The translations under genes and the position numbers were made by a program. DNA of 64,000 bases, taken from a virus. Positions 13,719-14,210 of this stretch are shown here, one piece after another (position 1 is the first letter of the stretch; each line of letters begins with the position of its first letter). The stretch lies in UHGV virus genome UHGV-0133741; one strand, given 5' to 3'. The notes under the pieces were generated by a model. The model had not been told where the DNA came from. It was given only the letters and a program-made list of their open reading frames with translations, and did no database searches.

Positions 13719-14210
13719 TTATGGAGCTACACCCGGCCCCCTGGCCCGCTCTTCAAGCGTACCCTGAACGTTTTGATGGCGCATTCCAGGGGCATTTCTG
13801 ATTGAGTCAATGCCATTTCTTCCAATATCTTCTTTATTAACGGCATTGCTCGCCACCAGCACGCCCCAGCTAGGAATAGCAAAATCAGGAGCGGTTTCGC
13901 ATGCCTTTACCATATAATCGAAAGTGCTTCGATTGATCTCGTTTGCGTCGGGATTTAACAGGCGAGAATATTGATATTTAGCATTTTCGTTGGTTGCGAC
14001 TTTATACAGTTCTTGCTGCACCATCGCTTCAGAAAGTTTAAGACGCTTCATGTCTGAAAGTAACTTCTTGCGCATGGATTCGTCTTGACTGACAGCAAAG
14101 CCGTAAACGTGCCCAAGGTATTTCGTATAATCGGTACAAATCTCCTTTACACTTGATGCTGCATTAACAGTCCCAGCCATAAATAATAACGGTAGTAATA
14201 GTTTTCTCAT
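13719..14210 (-). CDS. secreted protein with a Sit-derived C-terminal peptide
   Basis: ORF 13719-14237; likely start at the internal Met (MRKLLLPLLFMAGTVNAASS signal peptide, GGTGAG Shine-Dalgarno upstream). C-terminal ...IRNAPGMRHQNVQGTLEERARGPG matches Sit ...NGRGMRREVVQGTLEERARGKG (16 of 24 aligned residues identical). Confidence 0.5.
   Translation of the reverse strand: MRKLLLPLLFMAGTVNAASSVKEICTDYTKYLGHVYGFAVSQDESMRKKLLSDMKRLKLSEAMVQQELYKVATNENAKYQYSRLLNPDANEINRSTFDYMVKACETAPDFAIPSWGVLVASNAVNKEDIGRNGIDSIRNAPGMRHQNVQGTLEERARGPGVAP

What the first reader, a model, noticed from the sequence alone, without database searches (positions are those of the whole stretch)
13719..13810. Secreted cassette protein ends in a peptide copied from the Sit tape-measure/transglycosylase
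The last ~30 residues of the 172-aa secreted protein (IDSIRNAPGMRHQNVQGTLEERARGPG) match a Sit segment (NGRGMRREVVQGTLEERARGKG, nt approx 6780-6845), with recognisable nucleotide similarity between the two stretches. Sit itself carries a second, weaker copy (LRNSPGMRKNNAPEP, approx 6600-6670). Either a recombination scar marks how the cassette was acquired, or the secreted protein displays a Sit-derived peptide in the periplasm. The latter could act as a decoy for whatever Sit contacts during DNA injection, giving exclusion by molecular mimicry. There is precedent: the HK97 moron protein gp15 excludes superinfection through the tape-measure-dependent entry step.
Basis: seen in the sequence. 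Interest (0 to 1): 0.65.

Follow-up and report, generated by a model that had tools for sequence, protein, structure and literature searches.

The report
Prophage periplasmic protein mimics tape-measure motif
A secreted protein of this P1-like phage-plasmid carries, in a floppy C-terminal tail, an old and selectively maintained copy of a short motif from the phage's own DNA-injection (tape-measure) protein Sit, which may let a resident prophage interfere with incoming relatives, though no function has been tested.

Summary
The last ~40 residues of the 172-aa protein (13719-14237, minus strand) align with Sit residues 916-953: score 91 against 38±5.5 for shuffles, and BLASTP E=2e-6 within the window. 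A weaker second Sit copy is also real.

It is not a recombination scar or a recent copy. Of 16 identical residues, only 7 use the same codon, against 5.7±1.7 expected by chance. This saturation holds in four other elements, so the peptide is kept by purifying selection in both proteins.

The 172-aa protein is not Sim (SimC). It is a truncated allele of the "SimA domain" family (phrog_3933, 190-246 aa), of which P1 simA is a 52-codon remnant.

- The family occurs only in P1-like elements.
- It has a signal peptide and a confident helical domain.
- Its tail is predicted disordered, with the motif as an island of conservation (67% identity against 19% after it).
- Sit keeps the motif near-invariant just after its transglycosylase domain, even in an element with no SimA gene.
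- A profile search of 1.84 billion proteins found the motif only in these two families.

A true recombination junction lies at 13730/13731, immediately 3' of the motif. Exclusion by mimicry is plausible but untested.

The parts
13719..14237 (-). Gene for the 172-aa 'SimA domain' protein (p172), a truncated allele. The likely true start is the ATG at 14210 (MRKLLL..., preceded by GGTGAG), giving 163 aa.
   Evidence: ORF list; phrog_3933 E=4.6e-114; first 50 aa match P1 SimA and 160 aa match Ro157c2YLVW gp35; 163-aa form P0002 with 153 member sequences
14160..14210 (-). Sec-type signal peptide MRKLLLPLLFMAGTVNA|ASS. There is no lipobox Cys and no further hydrophobic segment.
   Evidence: Read from the translation; AF2 gives low confidence for residues 1-24
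13833..14159 (-). Helical-bundle domain of the mature protein (aa 27-135), with two invariant Cys (C34, C113).
   Evidence: AF2 pLDDT about 90 over aa 30-130; invariant columns; no structural neighbour in PDB or BFVD
13731..13802 (-). Sit-like linear motif IRNAPGMRHQNVQGTLEERARGPG (aa 146-169) in the tail predicted to be disordered.
   Evidence: Alignments and shuffles; pLDDT below 50; island of conservation, 0.67 identity against 0.19 after it
13719..13731 (-). Recombination/truncation junction (13730/13731) followed by the novel end VAP-stop. Full-length alleles continue TNSPMGNLSPEELQEY...
   Evidence: Alignment with Ro157c2YLVW; about 97 of 117 plasmid matches break exactly at query position 832 = 13731
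6270..9632 (-). sit, the tape-measure / injection transglycosylase gene (1120 aa).
   Evidence: phrog_2533 full length, Pfam SLT E=1.6e-14 at aa 738-843; P1 annotation; PMC9024508
6756..6851 (-). Sit motif copy 1 (aa 928-959, FMNGRGMRREVVQGTLEERARGKGTATAAGNV). It lies between the SLT domain and the conserved C-terminal domain and is near-invariant in all Sit homologues.
   Evidence: G, M, R, V, Q, G, T, L, E, R, A, G, G invariant in 17 sequences; distant Sit P0066
6615..6671 (-). Sit motif copy 2 (aa 988-1006, GIDGLFDKLRNSPGMRKNN). It sits inside a 43-aa insertion found only in E. coli-type Sit and shares only the first half of the motif.
13124..13630 (-). Secreted YfjT-like protein gene (168 aa, phrog_3429). 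A gene of this family follows the SimA-family gene in every element examined.
   Evidence: PF27224 on relatives; low GC3 of 0.29

Best explanation
Shown. The 172-aa protein is a 3'-truncated allele of the SimA-domain family of P1-like phage-plasmids.
- It has a Sec signal peptide, a ~105-residue helical domain with two conserved cysteines, and a flexible tail.
- The tail carries a ~24-35-residue linear motif ([FI]xN[SA][PR]GMRHQxV[QE]GTLxERA[RY]GxG(TxxxMGN[LV])).
- This motif is homologous to a near-invariant segment of Sit located just after Sit's lytic-transglycosylase domain.
- The two copies have diverged to saturation at synonymous sites but keep the same residues, so both are under purifying selection for the peptide.

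Inferred.
- Sit's C-terminal part is the portion that leaves the tail tip and works in the periplasm during DNA injection.
- The SimA-family protein is exported to the periplasm of the lysogen.
- The tail motif therefore most likely engages the same periplasm-accessible partner as the Sit motif. That partner could be a host envelope factor, or a part of the incoming injection apparatus, including Sit itself.
- By competing with Sit, or by bringing the helical domain to the site of injection, it would hinder genome delivery by superinfecting P1-like phages. This is a superinfection-exclusion function at the same locus where P1 carries simBC.
- The window's allele keeps the motif core but has lost the last third of the motif and the C-terminal extension.
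For: - Similarity is significant and unique within the window.
- Codon analysis: of 16 identical residues, 7 use identical codons against 5.7±1.7 expected from independent codon choice. The pattern repeats in L007 (13 identical aa, 2 identical codons), L008 (17, 6) and L085 (17, 5).
- The motif is an island of conservation in SimA-family tails: 0.67 identity, against 0.54 for the linker, 0.19 after the motif and 0.70 for the folded domain.
- The tail is predicted disordered (pLDDT below 50) while the domain is confident.
- The Sit motif is invariant across 17 Sit sequences even though the adjacent SLT domain exists in two very different alleles. It is also kept in a distant Sit whose element has no SimA-family gene.
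- A profile search of 1.84 billion representatives finds the motif only in Sit and the SimA family, plus two repeat artefacts.
- The family is found only in P1-like elements, always between pmgC and the immunity region.
- All independent tail rearrangements retain N..GMR.Q.
- P1 has simBC, a known exclusion function, inserted into this gene.
- Exclusion proteins that act on tape-measure proteins are established: T4 Imm binds the tape measure (bioRxiv 10.64898/2026.03.06.709160), and HK97 gp15 (PMC3594210).
Against: - There is no functional data of any kind, and no partner is identified.
- AF2 gives no structure for the motif in either protein, so nothing shows what it binds.
- Several lineages (Klebsiella/Cronobacter type, some Salmonella types) keep only the first half of the motif and replace the rest with a Cys-containing module. 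The full motif is therefore not essential for whatever the family does.
- Matching of motif variants between Sit and the SimA-family protein within one element is only a tendency. Six lineages match at the R/P position; one lineage and three recombinants do not; Fisher about 0.11.
- P1 SimA is non-essential and truncated (PMC10695390), so the family is dispensable.
- A stoichiometric decoy in the periplasm is not an obviously efficient mechanism.
- No promoter could be confirmed by the simple scan.
Confidence: 0.4

Rival explanations
1. Shared autonomous module without competition. The motif is a self-contained envelope-targeting or binding element (for peptidoglycan, membrane or a host protein). 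Sit and the SimA-family protein inherited it from a common source and use it independently. The SimA-family protein has some other role, such as lysogenic conversion, defence against unrelated phages together with the YfjT-like partner, or a helper role for the resident phage.
For: - Purifying selection on the peptide in both proteins is equally expected under this model.
- The SimA-family gene is always paired with a YfjT-like secreted protein gene, suggesting a two-gene module with its own function.
- Half of the motif is dispensable in several lineages.
Against: - The motif occurs in no other protein family among 1.84 billion representatives. That is unusual for a general envelope-binding module.
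- The family is confined to elements that also encode Sit.
Confidence: 0.3
2. Spackle-like inhibitor. In Sit the motif is an intramolecular segment that binds and regulates the adjacent transglycosylase domain. The SimA-family tail presents the same segment in the periplasm and inhibits the transglycosylase of incoming phages.
For: - The motif lies about 75 residues after the SLT domain.
- The protein is located in the periplasm, judged from its signal peptide (sequence).
- Precedent from established knowledge: T4 Spackle inhibits the gp5 lysozyme.
Against: - The AF2 model of Sit 700-1120 does not dock the motif on the SLT domain; everything after local residue 169 has low confidence.
- The motif is invariant while the SLT domain comes in two very divergent alleles. 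That argues against a co-adapted interface.
- There is no structural resemblance of the helical domain to any solved protein.
Confidence: 0.1
3. Recombination scar or recent gene conversion. The stretch was copied at the DNA level from sit into the cassette gene, or the reverse, when the cassette was acquired.
For: - Nucleotide alignment of 40/53 identical, above shuffles.
- A genuine recombination junction lies 1 nt beyond the motif.
Against: - Codon identity equals the chance expectation given the shared residues, and the same holds in four other elements.
- The motif is present throughout a family whose members are down to 52% identical.
- The junction at 13731 separates two alleles of the tail and does not involve sit DNA.
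Confidence: 0.03
4. Chance resemblance or a generic low-complexity peptide.
For: The motif is short and rich in G/R/E/A. Two repeat-rich unrelated proteins scored weakly in the profile search.
Against: - z of about 9.6 against shuffles.
- Only Sit and SimA-family proteins are recovered from 1.84 billion representatives.
- The motif is conserved across genera in both families.
Confidence: 0.01

Closest known systems
P1 SimA (52 aa) and the simABC superimmunity locus of phage P1
   Same: Same genomic position, between pmgC and c4/icd/ant. The first 50 residues are nearly identical to P1 SimA. The locus is the known hypervariable 'region 4' of P1-like phage-plasmids (PMC9603915).
   Different: P1 SimA is only the N-terminal stump of this family. 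P1 lacks the helical domain, the Sit-like tail and the YfjT-like partner, and carries simB/simC instead. The characterised exclusion protein SimC shows no similarity to p172 (score 27, at background level).
T4 Imm and HK97 gp15 (superinfection-exclusion proteins acting on the tape-measure-dependent entry step)
   Same: They are phage-encoded, expressed in the already-infected or lysogenic cell, and act at the envelope on genome delivery. Imm binds the tape measure directly (bioRxiv 10.64898/2026.03.06.709160). gp15 is a moron (PMC3594210).
   Different: Both are integral inner-membrane proteins with no sequence resemblance to their tape-measure proteins. p172 is a soluble exported protein whose only link to the tape measure is a shared linear motif. 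No exclusion phenotype is known for it.
T4 Spackle (Sp), periplasmic inhibitor of the gp5 tail lysozyme
   Same: A small, secreted, helical phage protein in the periplasm. Its target is the cell-wall-degrading part of the incoming injection machinery (established knowledge).
   Different: There is no sequence or detectable structural similarity. Spackle does not carry a copy of a gp5 peptide. AF2 gives no sign that the motif contacts the SLT domain.
Short-linear-motif mimicry (viral proteins copying host or rival interaction motifs)
   Same: A short conserved peptide sits in a disordered region and is shared between otherwise unrelated proteins, maintained at the protein level and not the DNA level.
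   Different: Here the copied motif belongs to the phage's own virion protein, and the copies are homologous rather than convergent. No binding partner is known.

Membership tests
SimA-domain protein family (phrog_3933) | Full-length sequence match to the family profile | tested here: met
   phrog_3933 E=4.6e-114 over aa 10-171, but only profile positions 1-162 of 213, so the protein is truncated. It is 96-98% identical to 205-220-aa members.
SimA-domain protein family (phrog_3933) | Location between pmgC and the c4/icd/ant immunity region of a P1-like element, followed by a YfjT-like gene | tested here: met
   Window gene order. The same order holds in eight further elements.
P1 Sim (SimC) superinfection-exclusion protein | Sequence similarity to SimC | tested here: not met
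   Local alignment score 27, at background level.
P1 Sim (SimC) superinfection-exclusion protein | Blocks P1 infection after adsorption | not testable with these tools
   Needs plating and DNA-entry assays.
Tape-measure-directed exclusion proteins (T4 Imm, HK97 gp15) | Integral inner-membrane protein | tested here: not met
   The only hydrophobic segment is a cleavable-looking signal peptide. The rest is a soluble helical bundle plus a polar tail.
Tape-measure-directed exclusion proteins (T4 Imm, HK97 gp15) | Physical or genetic interaction with the tape-measure protein | not testable with these tools
   Only a shared motif is shown.
T4 Spackle-like periplasmic lysin inhibitors | Fold or sequence similarity to Spackle | tested here: not met
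Linear-motif mimic | Motif lies in a disordered region and is more conserved than its surroundings | tested here: met
   pLDDT below 50 for aa 135-172. Identity is 0.67 in the motif, 0.54 in the linker and 0.19 after the motif.
Linear-motif mimic | Mimic and model bind the same partner | not testable with these tools
   No partner is known.
Sit / phage tape-measure protein with SLT domain | Full-length match to P1 Sit family and an SLT domain | tested here: met
   phrog_2533 over 1-1120; Pfam SLT E=1.6e-14.

The most novel reading that the evidence does not exclude
P1-like prophages exclude related phages by displaying in the periplasm a copy of the partner-binding motif of their own tape-measure/injection protein. 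This would be exclusion by self-derived linear-motif mimicry. If so, the motif pinpoints the so-far unknown docking step of P1 genome delivery, and pull-downs with the peptide would identify the host or virion partner.
Probability: 0.3. Interest if true: 0.8.

Novelty: new variant of a known kind. Interest (0 to 1): 0.55.

Why it matters
How P1 gets its DNA across the envelope is essentially unknown, and Sit is unresolved in the recent virion structures (PMC12810830).

- A ~30-residue segment stays invariant in Sit while the neighbouring enzyme domain is swapped. The same segment is separately maintained in a secreted prophage protein. This flags a functional contact site that can be tested directly with peptides, point mutants and escape mutants.
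- The result redefines P1 simA as the stump of a larger conserved gene.
- It shows that about half of the P1-like plasmids holding a match carry the intact gene: 126 of the 267 matching records in PLSDB.
- If the mimicry idea holds, it would add a new logic to superinfection exclusion: competition through a copy of the invader's own motif.

Tried and rejected
- Pfam gives a PTP-like phytase match for p172 (26.8 bits, cut-off 27). It is absent from divergent family members, so I treated it as spurious.
- NCBIfam, PADLOC and PDB sequence searches found nothing.
- AF2 of Sit 700-1120 was run to see whether the motif docks on the SLT domain. The motif region had low confidence, so the result is uninformative.
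- A GC3 test for the direction of transfer gave no compositional signal in the motif.
- A search for a donor of the DNA beyond the 13731 junction among eight related loci found none.
- Co-variation of motif variants between Sit and the SimA-family protein within elements is suggestive but not significant, and counter-examples exist.
- The genome-contig scan yielded only four loci.
- A profile search for remote homologues of the helical domain outside P1-like elements found none. The prediction that relatives in other phages mimic their own tape measures therefore could not be tested.
- The other two cassette proteins show no similarity to Sit or any other window ORF.
- The Lobocka 2004 P1 genome paper was not available.

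Full report
**Context.** The window is a P1-like phage-plasmid (Punavirus).
- The region 14071-14900 is 96.7% identical to P1 simA-c4-icd-ant1.
- On the minus strand lie sit (6270-9632, 1120 aa), pmgB, tub and pmgC.
- Three further genes follow before the immunity region: a 394-aa SH3-domain protein (11953-13137), a 168-aa secreted YfjT-like protein (13124-13630) and the 172-aa protein of the finding (13719-14237).

**Observation.**
- p172 residues 130-171 align with Sit 916-953 at Smith-Waterman score 91. One thousand shuffles of p172 gave 38.2±5.5, maximum 62.
- Against all six-frame ORFs of the window, Sit is the only BLASTP hit (E=2.4e-6).
- A motif HMM finds only Sit (two copies) and p172.
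- The weaker second Sit copy (aa 988-1006) scores 51 against 31.6±4.3 with copy 1 masked, reached by 3 of 2000 shuffles. It is an internal repeat of copy 1: 53 against 25±4.5.
- It lies in a 43-residue insertion present only in E. coli-type Sit.

**It is not a DNA copy.** The nucleotide alignment is 40/53 identical.
- In the 25 aligned codons, 16 residues are identical and only 7 of them use the same codon. Independent codon choice from the window's own usage predicts 5.7±1.7.
- Inside the 11-residue identical core, all seven nucleotide differences are synonymous.
- The same saturation is seen within four other elements: 2 identical codons of 13 identical residues in L007, 6 of 17 in L008, 5 of 17 in L085.
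- This rules out a recombination scar or recent gene conversion between sit and this gene. It shows long-term purifying selection on the same peptide in two proteins.

**What the 172-aa protein is.**
- It matches phrog_3933 (E=4.6e-114), but only positions 1-162 of 213.
- Its first 50 residues are P1 SimA. P1 SimA is 52 residues long and diverges exactly where simB/simC begin, so it is the stump of this family.
- SimC, the characterised exclusion protein, is unrelated (score 27).
- Full-length relatives are 190-246 residues (e.g. Ro157c2YLVW gp35, 215 aa).
- The window's allele is identical in DNA to them down to 13731. It then diverges completely, ending VAP-stop.
- In PLSDB, about 97 of 117 matching plasmids break exactly at this base, and about 20 share the window's arrangement.
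- The DNA beyond the junction (the YfjT-like and SH3 genes) has GC3 of 0.27-0.29. p172 and sit both have 0.42.
- So p172 looks like old backbone, and the true cassette begins 3' of the motif.

**Distribution.**
- The family was found only in P1-like elements of Escherichia, Salmonella, Klebsiella, Shigella and Cronobacter. There are 29 clusters in 5.8 billion proteins, 267 plasmids and 10 phage records.
- 126 plasmids have a near full-length gene. The rest have the P1-type stump.
- In every element examined, the gene lies upstream of pmgC-tub-pmgB-sit and is followed by a YfjT-like gene.

**Anatomy.**
- The likely start is the ATG at 14210, which has a GGTGAG upstream. The 163-aa form is the commonest annotation.
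- MRKLLLPLLFMAGTVNA|ASS is a typical Sec signal peptide without a lipobox.
- AF2 predicts a confident helical bundle for residues 30-130 (pLDDT about 90) and no structure for residues 135-172 (pLDDT below 50).
- Among the seven most diverse members that carry the whole motif, pairwise identity is 0.70 in the domain, 0.54 in the linker, 0.67 in the 24-residue motif and 0.19 after it.
- Every non-frameshifted member keeps N[SA][PR]G[MV]R. The second half (V[QE]GTLxERA[RY]GxG) is kept in at least six lineages. In Klebsiella/Cronobacter and some Salmonella types it is replaced by a Cys-containing module.
- The most divergent member, P0071, reads FLNSPGMRHQKVEGTLAERAYGKGTSTAMGNL. That is 25 of 34 residues identical to Sit of non-E. 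coli elements.

**The Sit side.**
- Across 17 Sit sequences, the block D..TGLxFxPGxxPFxKGGLxDxxG...KFxxxxGMRxxVVQGTLxERAxGxG is invariant or nearly so. The SLT domain just upstream exists in two very different alleles.
- A distant Sit (P0066) keeps RNAPGMRHQ...DRAYGMGTSTMMGN amid otherwise unalignable flanks. Its contig has no SimA-family gene between the upstream genes and pmgC.
- The motif is thus primarily a Sit feature.
- AF2 of Sit 700-1120 models the SLT domain but gives low confidence for everything after it, including the motif. There is no hint that the motif docks on the enzyme.

**Specificity.**
- A three-sequence motif profile searched against 1.84 billion representative proteins returned ten hits.
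- They were Sit proteins, SimA-family proteins, fragments of these, and two repeat-rich artefacts matching only LEERxRGxG.
- The motif is not a generic peptide.

**Co-variation.** Within elements, the variant at the R/P position before GMR tends to match between Sit and the SimA-family protein.
- It matches in the window (with copy 2), L007, L008, L012, L013 and L085 (identical NAPGMRHQ).
- The Klebsiella/Cronobacter lineage and three E. coli recombinants do not match.
- With so few independent lineages this is not significant (Fisher about 0.11).

**Interpretation.**
- Shown: homology of a linear motif, purifying selection in both proteins, a tail predicted to be disordered, an export signal, restriction to P1-like elements, and a recombination junction just after the motif.
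- Inferred: Sit's C-terminal part acts in the periplasm during injection, where it supplies the cell-wall-degrading activity (PMC9024508, PMC12810830). The SimA-family protein is periplasmic.
- The simplest reading is therefore that the tail engages the same partner as the Sit motif and thereby interferes with incoming P1-like phages.
- The locus supports this reading. P1 carries its exclusion genes there, and the region is a known hypervariable hotspot (PMC9603915).
- Exclusion proteins acting on tape-measure proteins are established: T4 Imm (bioRxiv 10.64898/2026.03.06.709160) and HK97 gp15 (PMC3594210).
- I give this about 0.4.
- The main rival (0.3) is that the motif is an autonomous envelope-binding element used independently by both proteins, with the SimA/YfjT pair having another role.
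- A Spackle-like inhibitor model gets 0.1. The scar model and chance are essentially refuted.

**Novelty.**
- I found no description of the SimA-Sit motif, or of P1 simA being a remnant, in the searchable literature.
- The Lobocka 2004 genome paper could not be read, so prior mention there cannot be excluded.
- The kind of system, a prophage exclusion or moron protein at the P1 sim locus, is known. The motif sharing with the tape measure is a new variant.

Noticed in passing
L001 (P1 NC_005856) 4009-4167; window 14088-14237: P1 simA (52 codons) is the N-terminal stump of a 190-246-aa family. In P1, simB/simC replace the rest of the gene and the YfjT-like partner. About half of the matching P1-like plasmids in PLSDB have the intact gene instead.
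   Followed up: yes
window 13124-13630 (-): A secreted 168-aa YfjT-like protein (phrog_3429; relatives carry PF27224) always follows the SimA-family gene, in very divergent alleles. This suggests a two-gene periplasmic module. The window allele has low GC (GC3 0.29).
   Followed up: partly
window 11953-13137 (-): A 394-aa protein with a C-terminal bacterial SH3 domain (phrog_7086; weak match to the SH3 end of an amidase phrog). Its start overlaps the end of the YfjT-like gene by 14 nt. GC3 is 0.27. It is present in only some P1-like elements.
   Followed up: no
window 7104-7421 (-) and alignment A3: The SLT domain of Sit occurs in two strongly divergent alleles among P1-like elements, while the segments on either side are near-identical. 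The enzyme domain itself is a swapped module.
   Followed up: partly
window 6615-6743 (-): E. coli-type Sit has a 43-residue insertion that duplicates the first half of the motif (LRNSPGMRKNN, or LINARGMRSNN in another allele). It is absent from Salmonella, Klebsiella and Cronobacter Sit.
   Followed up: partly
IMG/VR loci; P0007, P0008, P0016, P0019: Other tail variants exist. One allele is truncated inside the motif (…GTLEERASSSVGAITK). Several frameshifted versions occur in read-assembled data, which may be pseudogenes or assembly errors.
   Followed up: no
L009-L011 (Cronobacter phage JK004 and relatives): In these elements the SimA/YfjT pair sits directly after a 169-aa gene, with no c4/icd/ant module next to it. 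The pairing with the immunity region is therefore not universal.
   Followed up: no
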